This document shows positions 6,672 through 60,313 of a DNA stretch of 64,000 bases, in pieces; the first letter of the stretch is position 1; the number at the start of each line of letters is the position of its first letter. The stretch lies in the NCBI GenBank assembly GCA_905178155.1, contig CAJINV010000003.1:6508570-6572569 (forward strand), given 5' to 3'. The notes beneath the pieces were generated by a model, which was not told the DNA's origin, searched no databases, and saw only the letters and a list, made by a program, of their open reading frames with translations. The position numbers and the translations under genes were made by a program. Source of the DNA: Amoebophrya sp. A120 (taxonomy: Eukaryota > Protista > Dinoflagellata).

Positions 6672-8157
6672 ATGCGGCACAAGGCGGGCCCGGGATCGTG
6701 CGGGCAGGGAGGAGTCTGGAAGTGCATCTTCGTATCACCGTTGTTGACTTCGGTACTTGTTAATTTCCGAGAGGCGCATGGGGTGCAGTTGCGAACGAAG
6801 CCGCCGCGCGAGTACGACTACGGCACGTACGACCATGATTTAGAGGTGTCCCCGGGGGCTGCGTCTTCCCTTGCCATTGGCTTCTTTCGAGACGCTGTTT
6901 GGAGTCGTTACGAGGGCGTTGCAAGTGACAGCGGGCCGACCGCTGCCGCGCAGCTACTACACCGCGAAAATGTGATGTTGCATGAAGGTGCTGATCCCCA
7001 GTTACCCAGTAGTGAGAACAAGTTGGATCCACCCCTCGATGCGACGTCATCCTTTTTGGCGGTGTTTTATTCCCACACCTGTCCCGATTGTCGGAATTTT
7101 CGCCCAGTCTGGAATCGTCTACGCGGGGAAGTGCCGCAAAATCTCACTCTCGTTGCAGTGGAGGACCCCGAGTACGCCGCACCGGGTCCCTTTCGGCACT
7201 TCGAGATACCCGCAGTATTTCGTGTCGAAGTCGCAAAAAGTCGAGTACTAGCAGCGGACACGCCAACAACTACTATCGGCGCAGGAAACTTCGACGGGAC
7301 CACGACTCGATCGCGGGCTGAAGATCGTCACTCGCTGAAGGTCAAGGTCACAAAGTTTCCAATGGCTGCCTTGGGGGACTTTCTGGAACACAAAAAATCG
7401 GCTGACCGGATGCTTGCGGAGCTGGTGGGATTTGTTTCGCCCTCTGTGACCGCGTACGGCCTGTCTAAACGCAACGACGGCCGCCGCGGAAAGGAAACGA
7501 AGGGTACTGATGGTGATGCGGGCACACTGCTTGCGGTTTTGGCGGCGCACCCTGGGCAGGAGCTCGGCGTTTTGCACTCTCCTGACTTTCGAGATACTGC
7601 GCTGGCTATTAGAGGGAAAGATGCCCTGCCTCCGGAGGTGTGTTTCACGCAAAAAGAAGTTTTTAACGACGAACAAAAACTTTTACGTTTATGTTGCATG
7701 AAAGGAGAAATGCCTCCCTCTTTTACACGACGAGTGTATGCCGCTCTTGCTGGGAGATTCTGCATGTACAGATATGCGCTATTGCGCATTGCAAGCGTGT
7801 GCTGCTGATGCGCTGGGTAGAACGCATTGAAACCGCGTACTGCTGACGCATGGATAAATCATGTTTAATTCTGTTTTTCCGGTTGGGGCTTGCTATTGCT
7901 TCGGTTGAATGGCCTGGCCGCGTTCTGTGGTGGGGGCAATTTTCACTTTGGTACTCGCACAGTATCTCCTGTCGCTAAATTTGGCGACGTACTTCCAAAA
8001 CGAAACAAACACTAGTCCGAAAGCGGCTAACCAAAAAATTCTCCAACTCGCCGCTGGGTTTCTGGATCGCCACCAGCTCGCTTGGCAGGGAGGTGGAAGT
8101 ACCGAAATCTCATCTGTCGACATTTCACAACCACCTACGGATCATCCGAATAAATAA
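6672..8157 (+). CDS. Secreted thioredoxin/PDI-like protein, 2 exons (6672-7606, 7959-8157)
   Basis: FLAVFYSHTCPDCRNFRPVW (CxxC) and FEIPAVF (cis-Pro loop). Removing 7607-7958 joins DTALA|QYLLSL in frame. Confidence 0.8.
7607..7953. mobile_element. TIR introner
   Basis: Ends tattagagggaaagatgccc / gggcaattttcactttggta; DR ctggc/ctcgc; in-frame join. Confidence 0.75.
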
Positions 8158-8831
8158 AATGAATACATTGACATTGAGCAAATTAGTTTTTTCCATGTGG
8201 GTGTATACTTAATCGATCGATTGTTTGATGATGTGAGGACGAATCCTTTACATTGATGAGAACCTGTGTGAACGCGTCGCCACTGTCTGTTCTGCAGGAC
8301 CGTCAAGAAGGGTGGATGCACTAGTAGGTATCGAGACACTTGTTGTCCACTGGCATGACGCATCGCAATTACTGTCGTGGCGTAGACGAGGCAAGCGCGA
8401 CTGTGGTACAGATCGATACCCGCTTCTCCTTGGATTACCCAAATCGTCATCTTCGTTATCGGGTTTTTAATCGACATCAAAAAGTGAAAAGGTCGTCGTC
8501 GTCCGCCTTTAGCTACAACTGTGCCTCGTTAACTAAGGCATTTCCATTTGTATCGCTCGTTTTGTGCATTCGAAGAATCGATTGTTTGCAAGAACGAGTT
8601 GTCTTCGTCGATATCTTGATCTTTGTCCTCTTATCGAACTTAGAAGAGCATGCGGTCGTGTTTGGCTAAACACGAGCGTATGCTCGAAAAAATACGGACA
8701 AAAGTGCGACTAGTACGGGAGCACGCACGGTGCCATTTTTTTGAGTGTTCAATTCGCATCGAGGCGTGTAAGAGGTCGTTTTTCGTTGTGAGTGCTCGAC
8801 AAACGAGCGTCTTTTTAGGGAATGGTAGGAA

Positions 8832-9376: not shown

Positions 9377-12300
9377 ATGCCGCTCACGCGGAAAGACCGG
9401 ACGCACCACACCGGTGCGTCGAACCGGGAGACGCACTGGAAGCCGATCAAGGGCGTGCCCACCGACTTCGATGGGACGATGCGAAGTACGCTCCCGCGGG
9501 AGTACAAGTACCATCTGAGCCGAAACGCGCCGCTCATGCAGCTGTCCGGGGAAGCGAACACGGATTTCGAACAGACGCTGGCGGGGGCGGGCTACCGCAA
9601 GGGCGAGACCCTGACCGACACCCAAACAGAGCTGTTCAACCAGACCCGGGACCTGAAGCTGTCCGCTAATCTAGCCACGCGGCAAAGAGTACTGGAGGAC
9701 AGTTTCAAGCCACAGGCGTCGGCGGGCGGCGAGAACGCCGACGCACTGGATTCGTCGCAGAAAATGCCGGACGTGCTGCCGTCTTTCCTCAGCTGCCGCG
9801 AGAAGCAAAAGCTGCCGCTTGGCAGCGAGCTACTCCCCAGCTCTCCATCCAAGATTTCAGCTCCGAAAATCGAGTCCATGAAGGCAGTTGCCCCGAAATT
9901 GCCTCACGACAAAGCACAAAAGCTGCTACCGGCACTGCAGGTAAATTCTTTGTTGGCATGAAAAATTAATATATCTTCTATTAATTCATACATTCACCTG
10001 CCAATGCCACTCTTTTTTTAGATTTCACTGAGCTTTTTTGGCTTTTCTTTGTCTTTTTGCCGGAGTGACAGATGATTCGTCGTGTCTGGTTGTGTAGGCA
10101 AGAAAGTGAACTTGAGTGTTGTAATTTGTCAAAGAAATAGGATCGATTCAACATCAACTCGATAAACAGAAAAAAGCTACCATGCGTAAGTCTTCAATAC
10201 AAAGTACACCTAAACGCTGCCTCAGGTTGGGCATCATGTCTTGCCAGGGACTGTGCAGAGTTTGCCGCGATGGAACGCGCGCAGTTGGTGGGAGCCTCTG
10301 GCTTTAGAGATGCAGCCGAAAATCAAAGACTACGAAGCTTCCTGTGTTTGGAATGACATGGACTCCCACTACCTAAAACGCAGGAAAGGTCAGGACTACC
10401 TGTTTCGGGCCACGCGAACACAAGCGGAGGCCGATGCAGAGAACGAAGAGGCAGCGAAGCGAGACCTCAACCGGTTGGAAGAATACTACCCGAGGCGTAT
10501 CCGGAGTAAAAATGTACCCACCTCCAGAGTTGTCATGCATAATTTGCATTAGCATTGCCAGAACATGAACATGTCTCATGCGGTTCCCCATGAGAGGTAT
10601 TTTCGAGTCGTATTTTGAAATTTGTCATGCGCCAATCAGCACAAGAGACAACCATGCGGAGCGGGTACTACTAGCTCAACACGACTACAACAATGTGGAG
10701 CAGAATTAGGCATGCGTGATTCCCAGAAGTTGTTCACTTGTGTAGCAGAAATTGCAAATCTTGACCACCACTATGGGTTGGTGCGTTTTTACACAGGAGA
10801 AGGCGCGAGTTGGTGGACTCCGTGAAGCGGCTGGAGCCCGGAAACGACACGCAGGTGCGACCGGTTTATCTGCCCGATTTCGCTTACCTGCTCCCTGGCC
10901 GTACCAACGCCGAAATGAAAGCCCGCGTCGAGCGTCTCCGCGGTGTGCTCAGACAAAAGTAATTCTTGACGACTTCTTTGCGCGTGTCGATGTCGTTCAC
11001 GATATGATGCGGTTGATGATGCGATCGCGTTTCCTTTTACAAAGAAGTACGAAAGAGAAGAAAAGACACAACGAACTGTCACACTACAGTGAACACACAC
11101 GACAAGAATGAATTTGATTTTTTTTTCGTCTCAGATACGGTGGTCGACCAGGACTGAACAAGGTCTTTCGAGCGTTTGCCAACGTGAAGCCGGGGTTCCT
11201 CCTGCCAAAAGACTTCCACAACGTTCTGGACAGCATGGGCATAAAAACAGAGATGCGCGAATGCGAACTACTCATCCAAGCCGTGGATCGCACGGAGAAA
11301 GGAGCCATCACATTTTATCGTAAGGTAAAATCCCCCCTCCCCATATTGAAAAGGTATGTTTTCGAAAATTTGCGTAGCTGATTTGAGGTCACAAATCACA
11401 TCTGTGTTGCAAGAAGAGAACGGCAGAAGCTTCCGCCCCATTATGGAAGCGGTTTGTCATGCTGTTGAGCCAACATCAAGGACGCTTCTCATGCTAAGCG
11501 CCTAACTCAAAGCATCTCTGCTCAGGCTTGATATGGGTCTGCAGTCCTCTCTAGCAAGACAGATTTGATTTGTGTACTCAAATACAGCAACACACATTCC
11601 GCTTTCGATATGGGGAAGGGGGATTTTTCCTCACAATACATTTGAAGAGTTTGCAGATCTGGTAAGCTTATAATAATAACTATTCAGAAATGAGTCATGG
11701 GTGGCCTATATATATAATCTATAGGGGGCCTCTTAGAAAATTTTTCTAAGAGAAATTGCTTAGGCGGTACCACTTAAGAGAGCTCCTTAAGAGAGCTCCT
11801 TAAGGGAGCGCCTTAAGAAGCTTCCTCAAGGAGCTTCCTGCAGGACGGAGATAGCTTGCTTCAGGAAACAGCTCGAGCCGTGCCCGTTCTCGCTGTCGCT
11901 GCGAAAATGTGACTGGCAGCAGCTAGCGGCCATCGCTTTATTTTGGCGAGCGAAAAAAGTGCGACGCTACGCTTTCACTGACTCGGGCAAAATGATGACC
12001 AGAGGTGAGGGGCGAGCGTGAGGCGACGAGTGGCGTGAGGGCATGAGATTTNNNNNNNNNNNNNNNNNNNNNNNNNNNNNNNNNNNNNNNNNNNNNNNNN
12101 NNNNNNNNNNNNNNNNNNNNNNNNNNNNNNNNNNNNNNNNNNNNNNNNNNNNNNNNNNNNNNNNNNNNNNNNNNNNNNNNNNNNNNNNNNNNNNNNNNNN
12201 NNNNNNNNNNNNNNNNNNNNNNNNNNNNNNNNNNNNNNNNNNNNNNNNNNNNNNNNNNNNNNNNNNNNNNNNNNNNNNNNNNNNNNNNNNNNNNNNNNNN

Positions 12301-15300
12301 NNNNNNNNNNNNNNNNNNNNNNNNNNNNNNNNNNNNNNNNNNNNNNNNNNNNNNNNNNNNNNNNNNNNNNNNNNNNNNNNNNNNNNNNNNNNNNNNNNNN
12401 NNNNNNNNNNNNNNNNNNNNNNNNNNNNNNNNNNNNNNNNNNNNNNNNNNNNNNNNNNNNNNNNNNNNNNNNNNNNNNNNNNNNNNNNNNNNNNNNNNNN
12501 NNNNNNNNNNNNNNNNNNNNNNNNNNNNNNNNNNNNNNNNNNNNNNNNNNNNNNNNNNNNNNNNNNNNNNNNNNNNNNNNNNNNNNNNNNNNNNNNNNNN
12601 NNNNNNTGCTCATCCAAGCCGTGGATCGCACGGAGAAAGGAGCCATCACATTTTATCGTAAGGTAAAATCCCCCCTCCCCATATTGAAAAGGTATGTTTT
12701 CGAAAATTTGCGTAGCTGATTTGAGGTCACAAATCACATCTGTGTTGCAAGAAGAGAACGGCAGAAGCTTCCGCCCCATTATGGAAGCGGTTTGTCATGC
12801 TGTTGAGCCAACATCAAGGACGCTTCTCATGCTAAGCGCCTAACTCAAAGCATCTCTGCTCAGGCTTGATATGGGTCTGCAGTCCTCTCTAGCAAGACAG
12901 ATTTGATTTGTGTACTCAAATACAGCAACACACATTCCGCTTTCGATATGGGGAAGGGGGATTTTTCCTCACAATACATTTGAAGAGTTTGCAGATCTGG
13001 TAAGCTTATAGCGTCTAGTAGTTCTTTTGAAGTATTGGTATTCATTTTGCTCGACAGCTGTGAACTTGTACATATCAAGTCTCTTCATGTTTGTTCTGGC
13101 ACAGTTGTGGTCTAAATCGCTACGTGTACCTACGTCTACATCGATATCCACCTGCAGTTGGTCTTGTTAATTAAAGAAGCGCTATTGTTTACTTCACGAC
13201 GAGTGGCATTCTTTATTTCGCGCTGATATGCGATATACCAGATTTACTCGCCACTGATCGAAGTGGGACGGGGGGCAGAGGACGCGGTGGAAAGGCACAC
13301 GCAGGCAATCACGCAGAACATTCTGGATATCTTGGTGGAGCGGGGTCCTTACCTCGGGAAAGCATTCTGTGACGTGGACCCCGATCGAAACTACTTCATC
13401 AGCAAAGAGCAGTTTACCAATGCTCTGGGAACCGCCTGCAACCACCTCTCGGACCAGGCCATTGACTTTTTGTGGGCCGCACAGTTCCCGATTTCGGGCA
13501 ACAACGAGGACGTAAACGCCATGTCTGCCGTTATCGAGAGCCAGCTTCCTGCCGTTGCGCCGATCGCCGTAGAAAGTGGAGACAGGCAAGCAACAGAAGC
13601 GGCGCCAAGTATACTGTTGTTTGACCGGCCCTTCCGATATGAAAAAGTGAAGACACGCGAATAAATGCACGACAACATCGGGTCTGTTCATCATCTCTTT
13701 GTAGGAAGCGTAGGAGTGCAAGCGCTTCATTTTCTCGGCTGCTACTTACTCAAGCTATTTTCATTTTGTTGGTTGCCTGAGCGTGTGCGTTGTTCTTATT
13801 CTTTTTCTTTGGTGATACGCGCACCGTAGCTAGAATTTTGGTACGTCCTCCACTTCAGGGCTTTGCAACGGATAGGATAAGACATGAATCGTAAAAATTC
13901 AGGGCCATCTACTGTGGAAGTCGGAACACAAGGGTCGTCCCCTTCCAAGGTGCCACCGGAGGAACGTCTGGAGATGCATTTCACTACGCAGACAAAGGCC
14001 TTCGACAAAAAGGAGAAAGCTGCGTACGACGCGAGGCAGGAGAAACGGAGGCAAAAGATGCGCGAACAGAAGCTGCCGGCAAATCCCTACCGCGATAAAA
14101 TCGACTGGACGCTGTTTATGAAGCAGCTTACCGATTACGTGATGAGCATGAGACCCATGACCCCGGTTTACTACCAGGTTCGTATCTATATATTCCTAGT
14201 TTTCATTTTGAAGCCGTCGCTAATCGTGCATGTGCTGTTATTTCTCGCCCATTTTTCTGCAGTAGATGTGGTTGTGGATGTGTTTGGAAAGGGGAGTAGA
14301 GCGAAAATAGAATCCTAGAATTGTATCAGGGAGGAGATGCGAACTTCGCTATAGAAAAAAGTGACAGTGAGCAAAGTAAGACGATTCTTCATCTTCTACG
14401 AAGGCCTTTTACAATCTTTTCCAACACTGACAGGGCAAAAAGCGGCACTATGATTTGGTCCAGCGGACCGCGGCGCTGACGGGTGGCAACATCCCCGAGC
14501 TCGATCTGAATCGGCCGAACATGGACGCAAAAACGCAGATACAGATTGTCGCGGACAAACTCGTGATGAAGGAGCGCAATCTATCCAACATGCCTTCCGA
14601 GGCCGCGATGCAAACTGTCAACTACAACGAGGTTATCCGCACCAAGGCCTACGCGGCACGGCGGGCCATCTATCACAATATATCCAAAGATCGCTTCAAG
14701 TACCTCTGCAACAATTACGAGCAAATACCGAGGCAGGTGATGATAGACATTCTGTTCAACGAGATCGAAAACCCGGGCAGTCAGCGGCCCTACGTCAGAC
14801 CAGGTACACCTTTTCTTTGTTGTACTCATCACGACGTGGAGGTGCTACACGCACGCTTCATTCTTGTTGGACGAAAATTTAAGAAGGTCTTCTGCTTTGT
14901 CTTCGTGCTCCGTGGCAGGAGTAGACCACAGAAGTACGGAGGCGTCTATGCAAAAAACTTACGAAGGAAATAGCACCAGGCTAATCCCCGTGAGATTTAT
15001 TTCACTTATTTGGACCACATGAATTATCCCAGGGGGCTCACTTCCCGACGGCTACCAGTCTCCGCGCGCCGAGGTTCCCGAAATCGAGCGTGTCCGCTAT
15101 AACCTGCCGAGGTGTTACAATCTCAAGCGTTACAATAGAATATGGAAATCTGTGAGGCAAGAGTGCAGGTGGATCTAGCCTACTCCCAGAGCATTGCGCA
15201 TGACAAGTTCTCGAGTCCCAAACCGCGCTACACTCTAGCGAAATTTCCATTGCAGAAAATGGAACACTCTGCGAGTCTGTCTTCATGCTCATGATGCAAA

Positions 15301-18300
15301 ACAAAATCCAGACTCTATTGCAAGGCGTGCGATTGTAACACCTGAGGAAGCCATATCCGCGACCCCGAACACGTTGCAGAAATCGCGAAGGCCGTTTACG
15401 GTCCAACGGTTCTGGAGCCGAAGGGCCGCAACAAGAAAGCGGCACACATACTCTGCCAACCCGCTGACATAGAAGCTTGGGTACTATTATCTAAGAGAGT
15501 GTCTAGCAGCTTTCTTGACGTTTTCGTTAAAGAATGTTGCAATGATTTTTTGGGCGGAAGATGGTGGCTAGTGCAAGGCTGAGCCTTTGTCGTAGATGAA
15601 CTCGTACTAGTACAGGAGCAGCAGCGGCCAACAAGCAGCTGTACTGATAGTTTCTTTGTGTGTGAAGTTCTCATCACGGTGCACGTTGGAATGAAGTGCC
15701 TACTCGGCGAGCATTTTCTCTTTCGTCAGACATACAGATAAATTTAACTGCTAGGTTGGGTGCGAGTTCGGAAACAATGGCGATATGGTGGCACCGGTGC
15801 GTGCGTGGAACTTGATCGAAAAGCAGAATGAGGACCTGTTGCTATCGGCTGCAAGCACGTCTGGATCTGGATGGAAGCACGCAACTTGCGTCGCAGATTT
15901 TGACATGGCAGTAGAATGTTCTGCTGTTGTTGTACAGCAATAGGTCATGACAAGGCTCTCCAGCTTTACTGCAGATTTCTTCGTAAATCGCATGTGCATC
16001 CGGATCCGCATGACGAAGTGCCCTCCGCCACGATAAAAAAACTCGCCTTTCATGTTCTTTCACCATAGGGCTCCTGATTGACTTTTAAAGTTTGAATCAC
16101 AAATCCAGATCCAGCCATATTCGCAATGCATAGCTTGCGCAGTTCGACGATTCGAAGGACGGCTTAAACAGGGCACTGCGGCAGTTGCGGCCGCTTCGGC
16201 AGCGGCCAAAGGACAGTAGTCTCGACGAGGTCGAGCGCAAGCGATTGGAGACCGAGGACGCTGGCGAGGCACGGACCTCAGCGTCCTCCACACAGGACAG
16301 GCGTCGTGAGAAAGAGGAGGCGGCAATGCAGTATCAGGAAGACCTACAGCCCGAACCCGCCTACCGAAACTATTGGCAGGTAGATGGCGGCTTAGCTTTA
16401 TCTTCAAGGAGACGTCGTGTTGCGATTCTAGACCCAGACCCTGTAGTCCCTGAGTGGACCGGAGGGAGGGTGCCACCGTTGGGGTGCGCGGCGTCAGAAT
16501 CTATCATGCGTCGAAATGTGTAAATGTAATATGGATAAATATTCTTTGTGACGTACTTCTGTTCTGCATCAGCGAGTTGGAGGATAAGAATGCATGACAA
16601 AAATTAGGCCCGGTTTGTGATGGAGCTGATTGCGGATGGATTGGAAAAAATGGAGAATGGTGCGAGCGGCAAGTTACGTTCGTACAAAGCGTTCAAGCGA
16701 CTGGACCACGACAACGACAATTACATCACGCTGAACGACTTAGAAAGATCTTTCCAGCAGTTCAAAATTTCGTACACGCCCGAGGACGTGCACGCCGTCT
16801 TCTCGGAGCTCGACACTGCGGATCGCGGATCTGTCGGTATCGGGCAATTTAGCCGGAGGTAATGCCACAGAGATATTCGGTCATGGACCTGGTGTAATCC
16901 TAGAGTAGGTATATGAAAAGAGCAGTTTTTGATTGTGAATCTGTAGACGAACAACTCCACTTTGTCCACAGCAAAAAGAAAATGAACTACGCGCACTTGT
17001 TGGACCTGTGGCGCAATGTCGTTCAAACAACCTTGATGCCCGCTGGATGCATTTGTATCAGCTGCAGATTGAATTTGAATTTCGTCGATAGAAAAACTTC
17101 AGTTACTTTTGAAACATGAATATTACAATCAGGTTTCTTACTTTCCAAGGGAGTCTGCTTGATAACATGCAAAAACCAATCGCGATGGCGGCGTTTGATG
17201 GGACTTACCAAGAGAAAAAAATCCGCCCCGAAATACTCAAAAGAAGACTTTGTATCATGCTGGATCTGTTGCAACAGGTCAGGATTACTGCAACAAGTTC
17301 TCACTGCAAAGAGGCAACACCGCAGGGCTTCTGTAGCACCACTCTATGTAGAAGTAGGTAATTCCTGAGCCTGACTTATAATTATTCGCGGCTGTCCGTC
17401 GCTGTTTGCTCGGCAAAAAATAACAATAAGCCATGCCCTACTGCTAGACCGCGTCATTCTCTCGCAGGCTAAGAATGGGTCTGCGTTGCCTTTTCAATCG
17501 TCAGAGCGGTGCAGTGTATGTATACAAAAAGAAAATACAACCAGGCTAACCGGGGGCATTCATAATTCTTGCGAGTGTGCAGGGGTGGGCCATGGATTTT
17601 TTCCCACGATAGACCAGCGCCCTACCGCGTAGGTCCGGTGGTGGAGCGGGAACGGGCCGAGGCAGCAAAGCGCGGCGACGGGCTCCAGGTGGTCGACCAG
17701 CCGATGGATGCGATGGGATCTGACCCAGGGGAAGTAGGGACGACACCCGTTGCTGCGGCAGATCCGGGACAAACCGAAGCCGGGCCGGACCAGCGAGAAG
17801 AACCGGTATCACAGCAGCACGAAGTAGAACAAGCCGCTGCGCCGTCTTCCCAGCGTTCTGCCGCGAATGCGGACAACAGTCCCGTTTCCGTGACGGAGTC
17901 TGCGCCCGCACCGGCGCCGTACGAGCAGGGAGCCTTACCGGAAGACGACGCCGCGATCTATCCAGGCGAGCCACCCTTCACGGGGCGTTCCTCGCGAGCG
18001 GGCGACTATCGGATGAAACCCCCGCGGTACAGCATGCTGGGGCGGCGTTACGGCAGCATCACGCAGGTGATCAAGGCGCGTACGGATCGGTGGAAGGCCA
18101 AGAAGCACGAACTGTACACCACGCTGCCCCCGTAGCCCTGGGAAAAACAGTTTCACTGTGAAGCTATAATGTAAACGACGAGTGTAGCACTCAAAAGGTT
18201 TTATTTGTTTTGCCAGACAGTATCTCGCCCACCTAGAGGCGAGCGCACATGTTGTTTTGCCAGGACTGCAAGAAAGGGCATTAATTTTATTGCACGCGTC

Positions 18301-18762
18301 TCCTCCTAGGGAGCGCGCGCGGCAGATTTTTGTTGTGATGCGTGACGATAAACTTCTCCTGCTGCAAACTGTGCTAAATCATCACAGTGAAACACAGCTT
18401 TTCTGTACGATACCCAGGGGCGATACGAGCGCACGCAGTACCCGGAAACCACGCACGTGACGCAACCCATCCCGCACGAGAGCATCGCGAGTTACCTGCC
18501 CGAAGAGCGCCGCTTCAAGACCATGTCTTTGGCGCACAATGTGTACGCAGCCCCGGACCCAGAGGTGCCAGCCCGCATGGACCGACTGAAGTCGATGGCG
18601 ATCCGCGATTTTAACGTCCGCCGCATCCAGCACCGGCAGGCCGAAATTTCGCATCGCCAAGCGCTGGCCGAGGAGGCGGCGCGCGAGTTCGAGGAGAAGC
18701 GCATCGCCCGAAAAGCGCTCAATCAGCTCAACTACGAGCGGAAAATCCGGGCGACCTACTAG
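9377..18762 (+). CDS. Large multi-exon EF-hand calcium-binding protein, spanning the assembly gap
   Basis: EF-hand loops DRTEKGAITFEEF (formed only after removing 11316-11643), DPDRNYFISKEQF, DHDNDNYITLNDL and DTADRGSVGIGQF. Introns are a mix of GT-AG (e.g. 9941-10226, 10959-11134) and element type. Not all junctions were resolved. Confidence 0.7.
10498..10800. mobile_element. TIR introner, family D (tatccNGNGTAAAAA)
   Basis: Perfect DR aggcg; join YYPR|RELVD. Confidence 0.85.
11316..11638. mobile_element. TIR introner, family A (tatcg..aaaatccccctccccatat)
   Basis: Perfect DR cattt; removal rebuilds an EF-hand. Confidence 0.92.
12052..12606. other. Assembly gap (555 N) flanked by an identical duplication (11271-11672 = 12609-13010)
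   Basis: N run; identical sequence at offset 1338. Confidence 0.95.
12654..12976. mobile_element. Family A introner, identical copy inside the duplicated segment
   Basis: Identical to 11316-11638 at offset 1338. Confidence 0.85.
15110..15347. mobile_element. Putative GT-AG intron with 13-bp terminal inverted repeat (second introner class)
   Basis: aggtgttacaatc / gattgtaacacct; DR gagg; GT at 15112, AG at 15345-15346. Confidence 0.65.
15843..16132. mobile_element. TIR introner, family B (gtctgg(g/a)tctgga)
   Basis: DR gttgc/gcttg; removing element +5 nt gives NEDLLP|QFDD. Confidence 0.8.
17206..17611. mobile_element. TIR introner, A-like
   Basis: taccaagagaaaaaaatcc / ggattttttcccacgata; 411-nt removal joins ORFs 17116 and 17569. 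Confidence 0.65.
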
Positions 18763-25893: not shown

Positions 25894-27142
25894 AGCGGTA
25901 TAGAAGGAGGTTTACGGATTCGATTTTTTGTAATATGGAGTACGATTGGGATTGAGGATGACGGTATATTACAGTTGCCCGTGAAACGGATATTTTATCT
26001 TGCGACTCGCTTCTTTTGCAATGTCATACTCTTCTTGTAACGAAAAAACGAAAGAAGTACGTAAATAATTTTTAAACGGCACAGGAAACAACAACTGCAC
26101 GAGCGGGACGGCTGTGCAGCTGGAATTATTCCAGAGGTAATCTATGCAGATTGCTGGATGCAGAAAGAGGAACAGCGCAAAGGACACGGGAGCAACCTGC
26201 TGGCATTTGTGACTGGAAATTGGTTCTCAAGCTCATTCATATCTATTTAACGCTCTTCCTAAGCCTGAATTGTTTGTGTTTCCGCCACATTTTACTGATT
26301 GTGATTCAAATCATGAGGTATCTTCGAACTGCCTGTAAGATTCAACCGTCTCTAGAAAGAAAATTGATTGCGCGACCAAATGTATCTGTATTCACGGTTT
26401 GTGTTTGTCGTCCCAGCAGGATTGTCAAGAAGATTCCAACGAAGTTTCGATGCATTTCATGCGTGCGCAGCGTGCACAGTCTCATATTTATTTCGGAGGT
26501 AGTCACCAATGAATTATTTCTTGTTTTGTACTAATGCTGTCCGTTGGCCATGTTGGTTTTCGTGTTGTAATGCGCCTGTTTGTTGTCATGGCGATGGAGC
26601 AGACGAAGACATGAATGAACTCCTGGCATTTCACGACCACGTGGATCGTGATGCTATTTCCCCTTTACACGAGGACTACAGTAGAAGTTACTGCACAGAA
26701 CTAGCAAGTAACAGCATCGCCGTATCACCGTCGATAGCTCTTTTGGCAGCTTCGGAGCAGATGTTTGCAGAATGTACGTCCCAGGAAAGTGGGCGGCAAA
26801 ACGAAAAAAGACTTGCTGTATGTAGCAAAGCAGCACTCGGCCCGGGCCCTGCTCACAGCAGGGAAGAGGCAGGCGAAGGCAGAGCTTGTTCAGCACAACA
26901 CGGCGCGGGGTTTGTGTTTCCCACAGGAGAGGTGGGTTTGTGTTGCTTGTACTTATCAGCGGGACTTCTTCTGGTTCTGGTTCATCCGTTCTTGGCTAGT
27001 CTATGGGGTTCAGAGTTTCACTTCAGTTGCTTGGAGTAGCTCTACAATTTATTTCATCGGTTTAATACGAAAAACGTAAGCGACCCAAGCGAAAGTGTAC
27101 AAACAGGAGCGAATTCCTTCTCGTGAAAAGGAATCGAAAAGG

Positions 27143-49200: not shown

Positions 49201-50941
49201 GTTGCAATTGCGGCACTACTTGCTGCGTGGGCGCCTGCAAGTGCGTGTTTAAACACCCCCGCATTTCCGCAGCGGTAACTACTCTTCTTTTGGGCACGGG
49301 AGCGGTTGCAGCCTACCAGATGGGTAAAATGCAGCCCCTTTTGGAGCGGTTGCAGCCACATGTGACTCAGTCTTCTTCGCCGGTGGATGTTGTTGGCTCG
49401 TCAAGTAGTACAACTTCTCTTGTCGACGATCCTGACCGACATGATCGCTACGTGGCGCCGTTGGGCGTGGCGTCGCCATATGAAATGTCCATGACCACCT
49501 ATCAAAAGGAAAAATCCCCCCTCCCCATATCGAAAACAAAATTTGTGATGCTGTATTTGAGTACACAAAGCGACTTGTAATGCTAGAAGGCCAAGTGACG
49601 CAGCTGTGGCCCCCTCGTTTGCAGGCAATTTGTAATGCTGTTTCCCACTTCCAGCTGCCCCCTGTCATACTGAAGATGCAAGGCTTTCCCACGCCAACCA
49701 GCACTACAGTCCGCATCTTTCCCGTTCTAGCATGACGAAGCTGATTTGTGGCCACAAATCCGCATCACAAATTTCTAGTTTGAGTATGGGGTCGCGGGGG
49801 GATTTTTCATTTTGATACCACCACCACGGCCTGGATGTCGCCCGCCTCACACCCACCAGCGGCACCCACGGTCCCGCGACCGGCGGTGGAGCCGCCCCGG
49901 CTGGGCATCACTTCGACCACTGCCCTTGCAGCGCAGCAACCCAGCAGTGGAGTTGCCGTGCCTGCTTCGGGTGGCACTTGGGCGTTTGCAAACCCTGCTG
50001 GTGGTGGGCCGAGTGGTGACCTTCCGGCTACCCTCACCACCTCTGCGCCTTCCGGCGAGCCCGGGAAAGAACGAAAACTGCGGGAAGAACTTCCGCGGCG
50101 TGGAGATAGTACTATTTTGACAACTACTGCGAAGAAGAACACAGCTGCCTCTAGATCTACAACCACTGACTCGGCGATGACGAAGGAAGACGGGGGAAGT
50201 GGCCCAGGTCGTGAAGATCCTCACAGTGCGGAGGAGACAGAAAGGGGACGACGAGAACAATCGGAGGTTGAGCGGGAGAGGCGAGAGCAGGACTTCTACG
50301 AATGGCATGACAAAAATGCGGACCACTTTGGTAGGTTTCCTGCGCTTTTTGAGCAGGGTAACTTAGGCGACGCGGAAGATTTTTTGAGCGACGGTGTGCT
50401 CCCGGAGGAGCTGCAGACGCTTCCAGAAAACGACCTCGGTGCGCCGGAAGAGACGGACATGAGCCAAATCATCCACGACCTAATCGACGAGGACGCGAGG
50501 TTGCGAAGCAGGCTCACGACGGGATTGCGTAACCGCGGCTCGTCCTCTCGTCACGCAGAACACGAAGATAAATCCTCTCCCCCCTCCTCAACTGCGACGA
50601 CAAGTAAAAGGCGCACTGAGAATGATTGGAGGGACCGGGCTCGGAGCTTCAACGAAATGTACGTGCGGGCTGTGAAAGAGACTCGAGAAGCACCGCGAGA
50701 CCAGGAGTCGTCTTCCGGGAAGTTTTGGCTGGCCATGCAGCGCATCGCCACCGCAACCGTGCCCCCGCCGACAGCCCAGCAAACGGCTCGGGCAAGTACC
50801 CTTTTCGGTGGAGCTCTCGTCGGAACCTCCAGGCGGATGGCGAATGCGCCCGCACAGGAGCAGATGAAAATGGGATCTGCTCCCGGCGAACAAGCCTCGC
50901 TGTCAGAGAGGGACGAAACCCGAAGAAAGAAGCAGAATTGA
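31296..50941 (+). CDS. Very large multi-exon Cys-rich membrane protein with a split U-box-like domain; 5' end and some junctions unresolved, may be more than one gene
   Basis: CPITQEIMQDPVVL (~39780) and IHPMTRSRL...LISFEALQTEI (~44580), many CC/CCC clusters and hydrophobic helices at 48600-49320. Exons chain in frame across 15 element introns; 40834-50941 joins continuously if 40901-44557 is also removed. Confidence 0.55.
32247..32559. mobile_element. TIR introner, family A, opposite orientation to 57238
   Basis: Perfect DR gagaa; join FPCEN|YCCG. Confidence 0.9.
32641..32947. mobile_element. TIR introner, family C (tatgacaatgaaaaatgcccc)
   Basis: 21-bp TIR with 2 mismatches; perfect DR cggga; join RCPG|AFET. 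Confidence 0.9.
32976..33274. mobile_element. TIR introner, degenerate
   Basis: tatcgtgcagaaa / tttcctgtgcgata; joins to ORF 33284 in frame. Confidence 0.6.
33890..34346. mobile_element. TIR introner, degenerate
   Basis: tatggagaaaaa / tttttcgcgcata; join PRGS|GADDQ. Confidence 0.5.
34430..34775. mobile_element. TIR introner, family D
   Basis: tatcctgagtaaaaa..ccctgc / gcaggg..tttttatttaggatg; join EARFQ|RDDRR. Confidence 0.75.
34985..35857. mobile_element. TIR introner, family B, carrying a ~620-bp nested insert
   Basis: Perfect DR agggc; both arms align with 39184-39441; join FGLG|RATC. Confidence 0.9.
36589..36907. mobile_element. TIR introner
   Basis: DR tttca/cttca; join EFF|NSEDHW. 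Confidence 0.75.
38132..38525. mobile_element. TIR introner
   Basis: tatcacagaggaaaagc / gctttttttctctgggata; DR tccct/tcccg. Confidence 0.75.
39184..39441. mobile_element. TIR introner, family B
   Basis: DR ggttg/ggctg; join GNKRL|VENV. Confidence 0.88.
40909..44556. repeat. Array of four identical 32-bp repeats separated by three unrelated ~1.0-1.3-kb cassettes
   Basis: gagagagcatcgtcctcgagcttgtattccta at 40909, 42073, 43453 and 44510. Copies 2 and 4 are extended by gtacaagcgtcgcgc. Confidence 0.9.
42485..43025. repeat. Higher-order tandem repeat built from TCCGGA / AAAATCGATTTT palindromes
   Basis: Directly visible; produces spurious repetitive ORFs on both strands. Confidence 0.9.
44744..45002. 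mobile_element. TIR introner, family B, inverted relative to 39184
   Basis: Perfect DR gaaga; join KAVK|KDPAR. Confidence 0.9.
45468..45745. mobile_element. TIR introner, family D
   Basis: tatcctgactaaaaacgtcccc / ggggacgtttttacataggata; perfect DR cagtc; join KRQS|VLDT. Confidence 0.92.
46469..46741. mobile_element. TIR introner
   Basis: tatgagaatgcacaactcc / ggagttgttgactctcata; perfect DR gcgac; join PDRD|NGQR. Confidence 0.88.
47124..47492. mobile_element. TIR introner
   Basis: DR ttact/ttgct; join DELL|VDQG. Confidence 0.75.
47559..47859. mobile_element. TIR introner, B-like
   Basis: atgtctgggt / acccagacat; DR acctt/gcctt; join RSHL|DAGD. Confidence 0.8.
49500..49817. mobile_element. 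TIR introner, family A
   Basis: Perfect DR ccacc; joins ORFs 47820 and 49835 in frame. Confidence 0.92.
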
Positions 50942-50970: not shown

Positions 50971-51406
50971 TATGAATTGCGAAGCTACTGTCTGGGTCTG
51001 GAAGGAAAATGCCAAATTGTGCTGTGGATTCAGGAAAACGCGATTAAAAATCTGTGTTGCACCAAGAGCATTTTGTCTCCGGGACCGGGCCTTTCTCGTG
51101 GAGGCTAGGCATGGAAAAGTCTCCGCAGAATTTGCCGTCCTCTGTGTGCATTCCTAAACTGCTTCATGCAAATGCAAGAACAAATCAAAATTGCATGATT
51201 CATGTCTCCCGATAGAAATCATCGTTTTCAGCAAAATATGCGTACTCAACGTTCGCGGGTACGGGGCTTGCTGGATTACAACAGCACTTTCTAGGTTTAC
51301 TATTTTCCCCATGGACGCGGCCCTGTTTTCCCCATTTCCTTTTCCGACAACATGGCAACGACAAGTGTCCGCATTCTTCCAGACCCACACATACTTGCAA
51401 TTGATA
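50971..51406. mobile_element. Family B-like element just 3' of the stop codon, probably in the 3' UTR
   Basis: tatgaattgc..tgtctgggtctggaag / cttccagacccacac..gcaattgata. Confidence 0.75.
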
Positions 51407-56785: not shown

Positions 56786-56963
56786 TATCCCACAGAAAAA
56801 GACAGGCAAGGCATATTCGTATAAATGCAAAAATAAAAACAGAAAAATCTGCGTTGCGTATCCTAAGCAGCATGCTCATCGGCTCACCCAGGACAGATTT
56901 TTCTGCGTATTTATATTCCATAATTACAAGTATGAACGCCTGCCTGCTTTTTTCTGTGGGATA
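56786..56963. mobile_element. Fold-back TIR element upstream of the 57012 gene
   Basis: tatcccacagaaaaa / tttttctgtgggata with imperfect pairing far into the interior. Confidence 0.8.
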
Positions 56964-57011
56964 GTTTTCTCATCACAACCTTAGCTGGTGACAGACTCAA
57001 TCATACCGTTC

Positions 57012-60000
57012 ATGGGCGACGCTACGCGACCAGCCTCTCTGACACTCCGACCCTGTCCTCCCGTGTTGTCGCAAGTTCGCTCCTTTCGACTTGCATCTCG
57101 CAACATCTTGCCCACGAAACTTGCTGCCGGTTCGTCGTCCAGCATCGCTTTGTTCATCGCCTCCGTGGTATTAATATTAGTGTTGTCACCGTGGTCGAGC
57201 AGCTGCACCGTTGCAGCAGAAAGCTCGTCTACTGCAATATCGTGAGGAAAGATCCCCTCTTCCCATACTCACAATGGAAATTTGTGATGCTGGTTTGTGG
57301 CCACAAATCAACGTTGTCTTGCATATGAGGCAAATGGGAGCCGTGTGGCGCACTTCACAGCCAAACTGTCACGCGCTTTTGCCTACTGCAAGGCTTTGTG
57401 TCATGCCTGAGTGCTAGCCTTTCGTATACCTAATCAGGCTCAGGAAATGCCTGCAAGCGCTTGCTGCAATACAGCGCTGATTTGTGATGTACACAAATCC
57501 AGCAACTCAGTACTCGGTCGTTGGGAAGGATGTCCGGGGTCTCCGTCTCATCGGTTCTAGATGTCTGGCGTGAGTTTGTGAAATAGGGGGCAGTGGTTGG
57601 CTTAGGTTTGCGGAGTACTTCTGAAAAGAGGCTCCCATTCCTTCTTCCAGGCAGTCGTGATCTTTGATCGCTGCCACGCGGAGCCACCCCCTTTTCTCAC
57701 CCCCAGGGGGTTGTGGACCTGGCAAAACCGATGAGTTCGGTCTGCTGACTGTTCCACTTCCTCTTAGCGGTACCAGTTTCGCCCACGCCCACAAATCCAG
57801 CAACAGAAATTTCCGTTTGAATACGGGGAGGGGGCCTGTTTCACTTTGATATGCAAGTTTCTCACCCCCTGGTATAATTGACGAAGCGGACCGCGCCGCG
57901 GCCGCGACCAGGAACGGCGACGCGGGGAGCGCCGAAGAGACTGCGACAGGACACACGACATCAACCGGGCGTACGGGTAGTACTGCGGAACGTGCAGAGC
58001 AACAAAATGGGGCTCCCACGGATAATTCCGTCGGGCAAGGACTTGGCACAACCTCCACCGGGGGGCGCCAGCACTTGCCGACCGCAAAAGGGGACGCTGC
58101 GTCGCAAGAGCATCCGCGGCGCGCAAGCGGGACTCGTAGTACAGAGAACAATCTGCGCCAGCCGCCGGCGTGGCGCCCAGCGGCTGGCAGTAGTACACCG
58201 TCCGAACTCAATCTCAACCCTTTCGAAAAGCGTTGGCTACATATGGCAAGAATGGAGCGGCAGCTACGGGCGGCCCATGCAGCGAGGGCGCGCGGACGTT
58301 TGCCCGCTCTTGACAGTGCCGACAAGCCAAAGGCGTCGGTGGATGATCGGTTCCCGATCTTTAGTGAAGTCGCAGGAAAATCAAGCAGTACAAGTGTCCC
58401 TTCGGGGGTGGACAATCACTATACAACCCGTCGTGTTGCCCCCGCTTACGCCGCTGCCGGCGAAGACCTCTCACCGGCGCCACAGGAGGAACCTCAACAT
58501 GAAGTAGAATTCGGATCATCCGCAGGGAAATCGGTAGCCGAAAAAGAGTCGCAGGCGGGGACCCGAAGTGATAGTACGGTGACAAAATTCGACATGCTGG
58601 CACCTGGTCGACCGCGGCGCGGACTGACAAGTAGCTACCGGTCGTTCCAACCGCCCCAAAGCTATGAGGAAGTCGCCCTGGACGCCAGCACAGCAACGTC
58701 AAATATGAACAGTGTCACGAACTCGTGGACTCCTGCGCAAGCCTTTGACGGCACGAAGGGATCAGGCACCCCATTTCGTAGCGCGAGGGGAAATAACCCC
58801 TATTTGAAGGCCGACTTTCCAACACCAGGAGTGGAGGTGGTCAAGATCGAAGTATACCCATTCGTAGAGAATTGGTGGTACTTTGTTGTTCATGGCGTCT
58901 CCAACAACCAGGGATGCGACACAAATAATGATGCTGAAGCATGCTGGGAAGGATCGGACACGGACCTCGAAATGGGTGTTGGGACAGGAACTTTCGTTAG
59001 CACCGACCTACCAAACAGTGGGGGCGCCACGATGTGTGGTTATACTGACGAGTGGAAGGAGGACGATGGTTCTGTCCCGCGCGAAGTCAGGGTACAGGAT
59101 GTCGTGAACTCGCAAACTGTTACTCAAAGGGGCATTCCGTGTCCGGACGCAAATCATTGCAACATGCGCGTGGCGGAAATGTTTTGTCCACGAGGCAGCA
59201 AGGCAGATTGGCTGTTTGTGCGGCTTCCAGGAAATCGGGAGTTTCGGTTGACCGAGGTAACTGCCTACGTGAGAGCTGAAATTAGCCACGACCAAGTACG
59301 CCAGATCTTCCTTCCCAACGCCCCGACTCCGGAGTTTAAGAACGTTCCTGTGGACGAGAGCAGCGCGACGGGCAGCGCAGCCAGCTTGACGACTACCTGG
59401 ATTCCAAGCCAGGCTTTTAACGGTGTTTACGGATGCTATCGCACTGGACATCACTGCAGTAACAATCCGTGGGTGCAGGCCTCCTTCCCCGAAGCATATG
59501 TCGTAGCATATATCGACGTGTACGCTTTTATCGAAAATCCGTGGGGTTTTGTGTCTCATGGCGCGTCTAACTGCGACACGGGCAGTGCAAATGGTGCGTG
59601 TACCGCGACTGCGAATATCAATGCGGAGGTTGGGATAGGCAGTAACTATGGTCTCCCAGGAGAAGCCCCTTGCACGGGTGCCGGAGACACCTCCACTTGT
59701 AATATCAACTACATCCCCGGGGGCTGGTTGTGTGGTGGTGACTCCTCGTCCGACGCGACCATGACACCAATAACGTTGGACTTCGTCGTAAATTCGCCAA
59801 CCGTCCAAGACAGAGGAAAATTCCCGAGGAGCGACCTCAACAGCATGCGGGTTCCTCGAAAGTGGTGTCCACCCCGCCGAACAGACTGGGTGTTTATGCG
59901 GTTGCCGGGGTGTCGGGTTTTCGCGCTCAGCGAGCTCGACGTGTATACCTATGCTTCCAAATGCAGTTATTACATCGAAAATGTGTTTCACTGGTGTAAA

Positions 60001-60313
60001 CGATTTTGCAAGTCTTGCACTACAATTTTTCTACCCAAATCCCAAGGTTGTATACACATGACACGGAAAGTCCGTCATGCGCGGTTTCGAAGGGAAAACA
60101 CCACGAAAAATTCGATGTCTTGCAGTTCTAGCAAGGCAAACACTTTTTGTGCGTGTGTGGCATTCTCTGCATTACAAGTTCACACTGAAACAGTTTTTTC
60201 CGGCGATAGCAGTGACTGGACGAAGCAGATCGCTCATCCGGCCTGCTACGATGCTAAATATTCCCAGGCCACCTCCGGATCGGGCTTGCCAACTCTTGTC
60301 AACTTTAAGAAGC
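57012..60313 (+). CDS. Secreted/surface protein with two tandem ~185-aa beta-rich repeats (fucolectin/F5-8 galactose-binding-like); 3' end interrupted or beyond window
   Basis: Hydrophobic N-terminal segment. Both repeats share WxPxQAFxG...NNP(Y/W)xxAxFP...IxVYxFxEN...FxRLPGxRxFxLxE. In-frame joins after removing 57238-57856 and 59968-60213. Confidence 0.7.
57238..57851. mobile_element. TIR introner, family A, with a nested 283-bp insert
   Basis: Perfect DR tgcaa; joins ORFs 56988 and 58075 in frame. Confidence 0.9.
57507..57789. mobile_element. 283-bp insertion with a perfect 15-bp target-site duplication (SINE- or truncated LINE-like)
   Basis: cacaaatccagcaac at 57492-57506 and 57790-57804; subtraction restores a 316-bp family A copy. 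Confidence 0.8.
59968..60208. mobile_element. TIR introner, stop-free and hidden inside the predicted ORF
   Basis: Perfect DR gcagt; imperfect ~30-bp TIR; 246-nt removal gives KCS|DWTK. Confidence 0.8.

What the first reader, a model, noticed from the sequence alone, without database searches (positions are those of the whole stretch)
7607..60208. One geometric rule for ~35 non-canonical introns: TA(T/C)...(A/G)TA TIR element plus exactly 5 nt
Seen: at least four sequence families (A-D) and many singletons share TAT...ATA-like ends and a 5-bp flanking duplication. In each coding case checked, removing element+5 nt restores the frame and often rebuilds conserved motifs (EF-hand, HHE, SDR). In the copies checked no shift gives GT-AG (27214 yields only GT..TA or TG..AG). 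Known: introner elements with inverted and direct repeats are reported in Amoebophrya genomes, so their existence is not new. Inference: one DNA-transposon superfamily with a 5-bp TSD made them, and excision is guided by the paired-TIR structure rather than by splice dinucleotides.
Basis: partly seen in the sequence, partly recalled or inferred. Interest (0 to 1): 0.8.

Follow-up and report, generated by a model that had tools for sequence, protein, structure and literature searches.

The report
Transposon introns with one fixed cut
About forty small hairpin-ended mobile elements interrupt genes of a likely Amoebophrya parasite, an already published kind of intron; those covered by transcript assemblies are removed with exactly 5 extra bases and fit one fixed cut position, which likely reflects a relaxed spliceosome and makes the unsolved removal mechanism testable.

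Summary
Real, and of a published kind: the introner elements of Amoebophrya (Farhat 2021). The flush 5-nt duplication holds in the window and in 150 of 175 family-B copies from another public assembly. RNA-like contigs (one sample) laid on 27910-42480 lack element+5 nt at 15 of 15 element junctions seen; DNA-like contigs keep the elements. Added detail: where the two 5-mers differ, only one cut fits all 15, 1 nt before and 4 nt after the element (chance at most 3e-5). Every such intron starts N-T-A, like GT-A. Two of the 15 are ordinary GT-AG, and at 39184 an available GT-AG shift is not used. So 'no splice dinucleotide' overstates: +2U/+3A are kept, +1 and the last four bases are free. Likely a relaxed spliceosome, helped by end-pairing (0.55); a hairpin nuclease/ligase remains possible (0.25). 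No transposase was found, so 'one superfamily' is untested. The fixed register is not in the papers I searched, but this scan reported it before on other DNA of this genome.

The parts
7607..7953 (+). element; predicted intron 7606-7957 in thioredoxin-like gene; TSD 4/5; right end GTA
   Evidence: frame only, ends from sequence scan
10498..10800 (+). element, family C; TSD 5/5; right end AGA; EF-hand gene
   Evidence: frame only
11316..11638 (+). element, family A; TSD 5/5; splits an EF-hand
   Evidence: frame only
12654..12976 (+). identical second copy of 11316 with its flanks across the N gap; likely assembly duplicate, not counted
   Evidence: D4, 100%
15098..15355 (+). element; TSD 5/5
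   Evidence: frame only
17206..17611 (+). decayed element; TSD 2/5; starts TAC
   Evidence: frame only, ends chosen with frame in view
18133..18412 (+). element; TSD 4/5; starts TAG; +5 keeps frame, the GT-AG reading one base longer would not
   Evidence: frame only
20889..21110 (+). element, family C; TSD 4/5; HHE gene
   Evidence: frame only
21223..21513 (+). decayed element; TSD 1/5
   Evidence: frame only, ends chosen with frame in view
21616..22006 (+). decayed element; TSD 2/5
   Evidence: frame only, ends chosen with frame in view
24100..24386 (+). element; TSD 5/5; starts TAA
   Evidence: frame only, ends chosen with frame in view
24482..24820 (+). element; TSD 5/5; weak TIR (6/20)
   Evidence: frame only, ends chosen with frame in view
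24862..25116 (+). decayed element; TSD 3/5
   Evidence: frame only, ends chosen with frame in view
25172..25533 (+). decayed element; TSD 3/5
   Evidence: frame only, ends chosen with frame in view
25571..26074 (+). tentative element; TSD 5/5; right end TTA
   Evidence: untested
27214..27535 (+). element, family A; TSD 5/5; SDR gene; AT..GA at the fixed register
   Evidence: frame only
27828..28106 (+). element; TSD 0/5; intron 27827-28110, GT..TC; cut unambiguous
   Evidence: RNA loose end in 4 of 4 runs
28330..28495 (+). element; TSD 4/5; skip 171; partly retained
   Evidence: RNA joint 28325|28497 in 4 of 4 runs
28681..28977 (+). element; TSD 3/5; intron 28680-28981, GT..AG; cut unambiguous
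   Evidence: RNA joint 28679|28982 in 4 of 4 runs
29090..29398 (+). decayed element; TSD 2/5; skip 314; partly retained
   Evidence: RNA joint 29086|29401 in 4 of 4 runs, short side 28 nt
30748..31343 (+). decayed element; TSD 2/5; skip 601
   Evidence: RNA joint 30745|31347 in 3 of 4 runs
31714..32087 (+). decayed element; TSD 1/5; starts TAA; intron 31713-32091, GT..AG
   Evidence: RNA joint 31712|32092 in 2 of 4 runs
32247..32559 (+). element, family A, reversed against 27214 and 57238; TSD 5/5; skip 318
   Evidence: 14-letter RNA loose end in X2; contig length sum
32641..32947 (+). element; TSD 5/5; right end ATG
   Evidence: RNA contig length sum 605=605; frame
32976..33274 (+). element; TSD 3/5
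   Evidence: RNA contig length sum 605=605; frame
33444..33829 (+). plain GT-AG intron without TIR (control), starts GTAT
   Evidence: RNA joint
33890..34346 (+). element; TSD 2/5; skip 462; GT..GG
   Evidence: RNA joint 33888|34351 in 2 of 4 runs
34430..34775 (+). element, family C reversed; TSD 2/5; right end ATG; skip 351
   Evidence: RNA joint 34428|34780 in 2 of 4 runs
34985..35857 (+). element, family B, with nested insertion about 35125-35747; TSD 5/5; skip 878
   Evidence: RNA joint 34979|35858 in 2 of 4 runs
36589..36907 (+). element; TSD 4/5; weak TIR; skip 324
   Evidence: RNA joint 36584|36909 in 3 of 4 runs
37046..37985 (+). element with internal repeat DNA; TSD 3/5; skip 945
   Evidence: RNA joint 37042|37988 in 2 of 4 runs
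38132..38525 (+). element; TSD 4/5; skip 399; excludes offset 5
   Evidence: RNA joint 38126|38526 in 3 of 4 runs, short side 21-28 nt
38555..39092 (+). plain GT-AG intron without TIR (control), starts GTAG
   Evidence: RNA joint
39184..39441 (+). element, family B; TSD 4/5; skip 263; same-length GT-AG option not used
   Evidence: RNA joint 39181|39445 in 2 of 4 runs
40113..40603 (+). decayed element; TSD 3/5; TIR 6/20; skip 496; CT..CT
   Evidence: RNA joint 40111|40608 in 2 of 4 runs
40704..44573 (+). plain GT-AG intron of 3,870 nt holding other repeats (control), starts GTAT
   Evidence: RNA loose end in X1, X2
44744..45002 (+). element, family B, reversed against 39184; TSD 5/5
   Evidence: frame only
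45468..45745 (+). element, family C; TSD 5/5
   Evidence: frame only
46469..46741 (+). element; TSD 5/5
   Evidence: frame only
47124..47492 (+). element; TSD 4/5
   Evidence: frame only
47559..47859 (+). element, family B-like; TSD 4/5
   Evidence: frame only, left end picked by eye
49500..49817 (+). element, family A; TSD 5/5
   Evidence: frame only
50971..51406 (+). element, family B-like, just past the stop codon; TSD 2/5
   Evidence: untested
56786..56963 (+). palindromic element upstream of the ATG at 57012; TSD 3/5
   Evidence: untested
57238..57851 (+). element, family A, with nested insertion; TSD 5/5
   Evidence: frame only
59968..60208 (+). element; TSD 5/5; 246 nt and stop-free, so frame cannot test it
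60314..60363 (+). family-B-like left end whose partner was not found
30485..50940 (+). host gene, 2,568-codon open stretch over 22 introns
   Evidence: RNA contigs of 7,223 and 2,139 nt
27143..29636 (+). host SDR-like gene with 5 element introns
9377..18762 (+). host EF-hand gene model (1,278 aa; 5 element introns, 9 GT-AG models)
   Evidence: no RNA laid
20720..26138 (+). host hemerythrin/HHE gene model (279 aa; 8 element introns)
   Evidence: no RNA laid

Best explanation
These are short elements with TAT...ATA inverted ends and a 5-bp flanking duplication, likely non-autonomous DNA transposons, that are missing with exactly 5 extra bases from transcript assemblies and fit one cut position (1 nt before, 4 nt after the element), likely made by a relaxed spliceosome. 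Step 1 (inferred): an unidentified transposase inserts them in either orientation, duplicating 5 bp with little site preference. Step 2 (shown for 15 junctions, one sample): the removed piece is N + element + NNNN in transcript direction, leaving one 5-mer and an unchanged protein. Step 3 (inferred): because both ends read the same, either end offers a donor N-U-A-U, the GUA of an ordinary donor with +1 freed, and the far end offers a U-tract and AUA from which the 3' cut is measured four bases on; pairing of the two ends likely helps bring them together in place of U1/U2AF recognition but need not be strong. The geometry alone I put at about 0.95; the confidence given is for the whole account.
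For: Geometry: 13 joints and 2 loose ends all equal element+5; allowed offsets intersect only at 4; two junctions allow 4 alone; bound 3e-5 under independent uniform offsets. Ten of 15 exclude the mirror offset 1 although families lie in both orientations (window; loci 48 vs 29), so the register follows the transcript, not the element. DNA-like run X5 spans 9 of the 17 elements in single contigs with no differences. Spliceosome-like donor: +2T and +3A in 15 of 15 junctions not chosen for it, and in the 3 plain GT-AG introns; offset 4 is the only one of six that puts TA there; 2 element introns are GT-AG at this register. Farhat Table S4: all 18 'predominant' non-canonical pairs begin N-T, in both strains, although A25's repeat starts TTA. 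Same paper: nearly full spliceosome, U1 undetected; a congener with GT-AG introns has U1 (PMC12005148 passages). Precedent: Fritillaria's altered spliceosome (PMC13326754 abstract). Pairing as helper: own-end complementarity at TIR positions 4-10 is 0.53 vs 0.34 across elements (p=0.0003, n=17); 12 of 17 have an in-register pair with probability at least 0.5; the two SDR introns with retained-form contigs are the two with the weakest predicted helix. TSD: 150 of 175 perfect at k=5, 0 at k=4 and 6-10.
Against: No lariat, branch point or snRNP contact was or could be tested. The last two intron bases are free (AG in 2 of 17) and +1 is any base (G 7, A 7, C 2, T 1), which ordinary second-step docking would not tolerate (established knowledge). 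The -7 A, invariant in 15 of 15 RNA junctions, is G in 7607 and in 3 of 214 oriented copies in the loci, so a strict branch A is not supported. The predicted stricter constraint on the 5' TA than on its 3' mirror appeared in the small set (0 vs 6, p=0.03) but not in the larger unbiased set (position 1: 1 vs 2; position 2: 1 vs 1; n=214). TA at +2/+3 may be only the transposon's terminus. No significant enrichment of G at +1 or AG in young sites (76 vs 60; 17 vs 9). All RNA data are contigs from one sample of one study, labelled RNA by guess, all genes on one strand, and only 27910-42480 was laid. In decayed elements own-end pairing is marginal (0.43 vs 0.34, p=0.08). No transposase found.
Confidence: 0.55

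Rival explanations
1. A non-spliceosomal RNA nuclease and ligase recognises the paired ends as a helix and cuts 1 nt and 4 nt outside it, as the first reader proposed and as is suggested for euglenid nonconventional introns.
For: No sequence consensus at +1 or in the last four bases; complementarity above consensus; an available GT-AG option is ignored at 39184; retained forms at the two weakly pairing SDR introns; in Euglena, mutational tests support a role of the inverted repeats (PMC12501133 passages).
Against: 5 of 17 spliced elements have in-register pair probabilities of 0.15 or less; an unrelated enzyme gives no reason for the cut to place TA exactly at +2/+3 in two strains with different repeats; two element introns are GT-AG at the same register.
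Confidence: 0.25
2. The spliceosome reads the two ends only as linear signals (donor N-U-A; U-tract and AUA as branch region with a fixed distance to the 3' cut); pairing is a by-product of transposon symmetry.
For: Weakly pairing elements are still cut at the register; where +4 is not T (6 of 42) the -7 A is kept without a partner (five of these six are frame-only and were sought by an ATA end); own-end pairing in decayed elements is marginal (p=0.08).
Against: Own-end complementarity at positions 4-10 persists with wobble pairs in decayed elements (0.60 vs 0.46, p=0.019); -7 and -6 variants exist.
Confidence: 0.15
3. The joined forms come from DNA: programmed DNA excision, an element-free allele, or an assembly artefact.
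For: X1-X4 are RNA by guess only; 165 of 180 X5 joints were not shown.
Against: The same contigs also lack three plain GT-AG introns, match at 100%, and show zero depth between genes; X5 contigs run through the elements at flat single-copy depth and none of its 15 shown joints is an element+5 skip; DNA excision would not follow transcript direction.
Confidence: 0.03

Closest known systems
Introner elements / non-canonical introns of Amoebophrya sp. A120 (Farhat et al. 2021, PMC7789003; read: abstract, sections 10, 11, 12, 16, passages, supplement part 2 and Table S4 rows; figures not visible)
   Same: Inverted ends starting TAT, seven variable bases, then an A-tract; 3-5-nt direct repeats (5 bp in the Fig. 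S19 legend); about 240-320 nt; many families and singletons; RNA-supported; hairpin proposed to join exons; MITE-like; some introns with these repeats are GT-AG.
   Different: The paper gives variable repeat length and position, 'no clear splicing signature', and splice sites 'variable' relative to the hairpin. Here the duplication is a constant flush 5 bp and the cut fits one register, so all donors are N-T-A.
Introner survey of A120 (Gozashti et al. 2025, PMC12130899; read: passages, 32 of 58 A120 rows of the family table)
   Same: Most families classed as TIR DNA, superfamily unknown; mixed gt/at/non-canonical ends.
   Different: Duplication lengths listed as 2-6 or none (5 in 4 of 32 rows read) and families treated as diverse; family 38 has TIRs with integrase-like homology. 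No common register in what I read.
Non-canonical introns of Fritillaria borealis (PMC13326754 abstract; PMC11282704 passages)
   Same: MITE-derived introns with TIR and TSD, non-GT/AG ends, handled by a changed spliceosome.
   Different: There the ends have preferred dinucleotides, U1 is kept and U2AF is duplicated; here the 3' bases are free and U1 is reported missing.
Euglenid nonconventional introns (PMC12501133 passages; PMC11282704 passages)
   Same: Ends brought together by inverted repeats at fixed offsets; slidable junctions in direct repeats; register found from non-slidable introns.
   Different: Signature N3CDG...CH'GN5-6|R with pairing from +4; circular products reported; no U+2/A+3.
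hAT5 transposons (PMC12730594 passage) and Ginger-like integrase transposons (PMC12130899 passage)
   Same: hAT5 makes 5-bp duplications; an A120 TIR family carries integrase-like homology.
   Different: No transposase was found or compared here; ends are TAT in 494 of 520 termini.

Membership tests
Amoebophrya A120-type introner elements | Inverted repeat at both intron ends starting TAT + 7 nt + A-tract | tested here: met
   logos: TA 15/15, third T 14/15, A at positions 11-12 in 12-13 of 15 at each end; 494 of 520 termini TAT with the first three letters left free
Amoebophrya A120-type introner elements | 3-5-nt direct repeat at the exon/intron boundaries | tested here: met
   k=5 identity 0.73 in window; 150 of 175 perfect in loci
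Amoebophrya A120-type introner elements | Removed from transcripts, mostly with non-GT-AG ends | tested here: met
   15 of 15 element junctions seen; 13 non-GT-AG
Amoebophrya A120-type introner elements | Repeated in families plus singletons | tested here: met
   blastn families; 147 stretches with the family-B end
Amoebophrya A120-type introner elements | Host is Amoebophrya A120 | not tested
   No genome held; the label rests on motif match to the paper and on earlier scan notes
Non-autonomous TIR DNA transposons (MITEs) | TIRs, constant TSD, either orientation, short | tested here: met
Non-autonomous TIR DNA transposons (MITEs) | Cognate autonomous element with a transposase and the same ends | tested here: inconclusive
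   No transposase family among 13 window ORFs or 56 of 63 long locus ORFs; the two long TIR calls inspected were false; only 0.7 Mb seen
Non-autonomous TIR DNA transposons (MITEs) | Empty orthologous site with one copy of the 5-mer | not tested
   No orthologous locus among the fetched loci
hAT5 | 5-bp TSD | tested here: met
   definition from PMC12730594 passage
hAT5 | hAT-type transposase | not tested
   No candidate protein in hand; claimed in earlier scan notes only
Ginger | TGT termini (recalled, from no call) | tested here: not met
   TGT in 1 of 520 termini
U2-type spliceosomal intron | GT...AG ends | tested here: not met
   2 of 17 RNA-supported, 2 of 42 overall at the register; about 3% of young sites would give it (6 of 214)
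U2-type spliceosomal intron | Donor +2U and +3A | tested here: met
   15 of 15 junctions
U2-type spliceosomal intron | Branch adenosine and lariat | not testable with these tools
   -7 A is 15/15 in RNA junctions but has G variants; contigs cannot show lariats
Euglenid nonconventional intron | N3CDG...CH'GN5-6|R signature | tested here: not met
   Ends read N-TA(T)...(A)TA-NNNN
Euglenid nonconventional intron | Stable pairing of the ends required for removal | tested here: inconclusive
   12 of 17 predicted paired, 5 of 17 not

The most novel reading that the evidence does not exclude
This lineage has a U1-less spliceosome whose donor is reduced to U+2/A+3 and whose acceptor has no sequence at all, the 3' cut being measured four bases past a transposon end. 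Any insertion by one 5-bp-TSD transposase system, in either orientation and at any site, is then born as a scar-free intron, and tens of thousands of 'diverse' splice sites collapse into one rule.
Probability: 0.45. Interest if true: 0.8.

Novelty: already known. Interest (0 to 1): 0.5.

Why it matters
The elements are published; how they are removed is open. A single register turns 'highly variable splice sites' into a rule with exact predictions: where a lariat's 5' base and branch must lie, which bases should be mutable, and how tens of thousands of ambiguous junction annotations should be shifted. It also explains tolerance of mass insertion into coding exons: only about 3% of young sites could give GT-AG, yet removal leaves no scar. 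If spliceosomal, it would mark how far splice-site recognition can be relaxed; if not, it points to an unknown RNA cut-and-join activity. The score is moderate because the system is known, the mechanism is untested here, and the register has been noted by other agents of this scan.

Tried and rejected
No whole genome is held, so no genome-wide count or transposase search. No listed run is on record as an RNA holder. Both lays went to 27910-42480; 25 of 42 elements have no RNA test, and 3 of 18 joints were not shown. Family-B end in viral contigs: 0. Transposase: none by Pfam; of the long TIR+TSD calls, L057 and L067 were inspected and came from ends or inner motifs of separate short elements, the others were not inspected one by one. 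Terminal-variant asymmetry test: positive in a small set, null in the larger one; the family-A motif was off by one base and its 9 calls were set aside. AG|G target preference: not significant. TSD decay against TIR decay: rho 0.31, p=0.23. G at +1 in decayed vs intact sites 8/17 vs 5/25, p=0.09. No common branch motif seen in 13 GT-AG introns (3 RNA-backed, 10 modelled). Two EF-gene introns (13609, 15481) can be read as GT-AG or as decayed elements in the same frame and were left out of the 42. X5 depth over families A and B is 500- to 4,000-fold above unique DNA, but the tool warns this is no copy number, so I use it only as a sign of high repetition.

Full report
Observation. A blind scan for TA...TA pairs with inverted-repeat ends and a flush duplication found 11 with a perfect 5-mer against a shuffled mean of 3.3 (max 6 in 10 shuffles); k=2-4 were below their shuffled means and k=6 had 3 against 1.2. 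Profile scans and gene modelling gave 42 elements of 166-940 nt (median 318), 15.2 kb in all. Flush identity is 0.73 at k=5 and 0.21-0.31 at the other lengths from 2 to 9. Sixteen have a perfect duplication and ten match at two or fewer positions. blastn groups A (11316, 27214, 32247, 49500, 57238), B (34985, 39184, 44744, 47559, 50971) and C (10498, 20889, 34430, 45468); members lie in both orientations within genes that all run on the + strand.

Larger sample. A pattern made from the family-B end hit 147 stretches in the metagenome collection, all 80 listed ones on JACKZZ01 contigs; 144 loci, 640 kb, reached the script box. Of 175 paired family-B copies, 150 have a perfect flush 5-mer, 14 a 2-mer, 2 a 3-mer, none a 4-mer or 6- to 10-mer; the target shows only a mild G/C lean. 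A family-free caller that left the first three letters open called 260 elements (0 calls in 281 kb of shuffled DNA); 494 of 520 termini are TAT. Family B lies in both orientations against the inferred gene strand (48 vs 29 of 77). Whether this assembly is the same strain was not examined.

RNA. No run on record as RNA holds the stretch. Four contig sets guessed to be RNA (X1-X4, one sample, one study) behave as spliced RNA: 100% identity, zero depth between genes, and three plain GT-AG introns missing. On 27910-42480, 15 of 18 joints were shown: 13 skip an element and 2 a plain GT-AG intron. Loose ends add two element junctions (27826|28111 in 4 of 4 runs; 32246 onward, 14 letters, one run) and one GT-AG intron. 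All 15 element junctions remove element+5. Two more (32641, 32976) fit a contig's length exactly, 605 = 605. Contigs of the DNA-like run X5 span 9 of these 17 elements whole with no differences, at flat depth; none of its 15 shown joints (of 180) is an element+5 skip. X5 may be the source of the assembly and is not independent. Retained-form contigs exist for two SDR introns (29059-29430 in 4 of 4 runs; 28300-28526 listed in 2), at about a third of the spliced contigs' depth; bin depths leave no room for retained forms of the other two.

The register. With a perfect duplication the cut can slide over six offsets; where the two 5-mers differ the RNA shows which copy gave each base. Allowed offsets (bases kept from the left copy) are {4}, {1-5}, {4}, {2-4}, {3,4}, {4,5}, {0-5}, {4,5}, {4,5}, {0-5}, {1-5}, {2-5}, {0-4}, {3-5}, {4,5}. 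Only 4 is common; under independent uniform offsets any shared offset has probability at most 3e-5. The intron is thus one base + element + four bases. For several decayed elements I fixed the ends after seeing the joint, but the junctions were not chosen for motif, and all 15 show TA at +2/+3 and AT at -7/-6. Ten of 15 exclude the mirror offset, so the asymmetry follows the transcript and not the element. At this register donors are GT 7, AT 5, CT 2, TT 1 and acceptors are AG in 2. At 39184 a GT-AG pair of the same length is available at offset 1 and the contig excludes it. Applying the rule gives one open frame of 2,568 codons across 22 introns, six of them downstream element introns with no RNA laid, and continuous SDR, EF-hand, HHE and thioredoxin-like frames. 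For 13 frame-only elements the ends came from the sequence scan and the frame test is informative; for 8 the ends were chosen by eye with the frame in view; 59968 is open either way.

Mechanism. Shown: geometry, transcript direction, presence in DNA. Inferred: the enzyme. For the spliceosome: offset 4 is the one that puts U and A at +2/+3, shared with the three plain introns (GTAT, GTAG, GTAT); in Farhat's Table S4 all 18 commonest non-canonical pairs start N-T in both strains although A25's repeat begins TTA; the spliceosome is nearly complete but U1 was not detected, whereas a congener with GT-AG introns has U1; Fritillaria shows that a spliceosome can adapt this way. For a role of pairing: something in the element must place a 3' cut that has no sequence of its own; own-end complementarity exceeds the shared consensus (0.53 vs 0.34, p=0.0003; decayed subset 0.43 vs 0.34, p=0.08, with wobble p=0.019); 12 of 17 fold with an in-register helix; the two partly retained introns pair worst (n=4, one gene). 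Against pairing as sole guide: 5 of 17 spliced elements have pair probabilities of 0.15 or less. Against my reading: no lariat data; -7 A has G variants; the 5'/3' asymmetry of end variants vanished in the larger set; no significant drift to G or AG. I put a relaxed spliceosome aided by pairing at 0.55, a hairpin nuclease/ligase at 0.25, purely linear recognition at 0.15, DNA-level causes at 0.03.

Origin. hAT5 makes 5-bp duplications; an A120 TIR family has integrase-like homology. Earlier notes propose hAT-like enzymes in 11-16-kb elements; I could not test them.

What is known. Farhat 2021 describes these elements, the TAT start with A-tract, 3-5-nt direct repeats with a 5-bp example, and the hairpin idea, and says the splice sites are variable relative to the hairpin. 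Gozashti 2025 lists duplications of 2-6 bp or none in the 32 of 58 A120 rows I read. Six searches naming Amoebophrya or dinoflagellate introners and passages of PMC11282704, PMC9860276, PMC11453091 and PMC12005148 showed no fixed register. Limits: Farhat's Figs 3, S19-S23 and S25 are images I could not see and may show it; Roy et al. 2023 (Curr Biol) was not read; subscription papers are not searched. This scan has reported element+5 removal and the -1/+4 cut on other pieces of the genome; my reading was logged before that look-up, and those notes are not counted as support.

Verdict. Observation confirmed; interpretation partly supported; known system with a sharper, testable rule. Interest 0.5.

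Noticed in passing
window 11271-11662 and 12609-13000: Exon, element and flank are repeated at 100% on both sides of the 555-N gap; likely an assembly duplicate.
   Followed up: partly
window 28803-28927: A 125-nt near-perfect palindrome inside element 28681; the DNA-like contigs break there, so it may be real or an assembly fold-back.
   Followed up: no
window 61530-62549: 340-codon ORF with no Pfam hit; Atlas features point to tyrosine recombinases (score 0.97; Phage_integrase on 27-100% of members of some clusters). It lies past the unclosed element end at 60314, likely in a separate mobile element.
   Followed up: partly
window 35125-35747, about 57500-57790, 37287-37870: Insertions nested in elements; 34985 (873 nt) and 37046 (940 nt) are still removed at the same register.
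   Followed up: partly
window 40704-44573: 3.9-kb GT-AG intron holding four copies of a 40-50-nt repeat and a 230-nt tandem array; another mobile element.
   Followed up: no
window 22331-22373 and 23929-23971: 43-nt direct repeats around a 1.5-kb GC-rich insertion in the GT-AG intron of the HHE gene.
   Followed up: no
window 59968-60208: Element plus 5 nt is 246 nt and stop-free, so retention would add 82 residues in frame.
   Followed up: no
window 13000-13241: A modelled GT-AG intron also ends with ATA plus four bases, perhaps an old element.
   Followed up: no
   Followed up: no
window 51826-53340: Three adjacent satellite arrays (22-, 17- and 18-nt units).
   Followed up: no
L057:2877-9126: Eleven called elements in 6.3 kb, among them a 135-156-nt family not seen in the window, on a gene inferred to lie on the minus strand.
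   Followed up: partly
L012:591-2090: 500-codon ORF with a C5 DNA methylase domain (E 2e-37) next to an unnamed 1,100-codon ORF.
   Followed up: no
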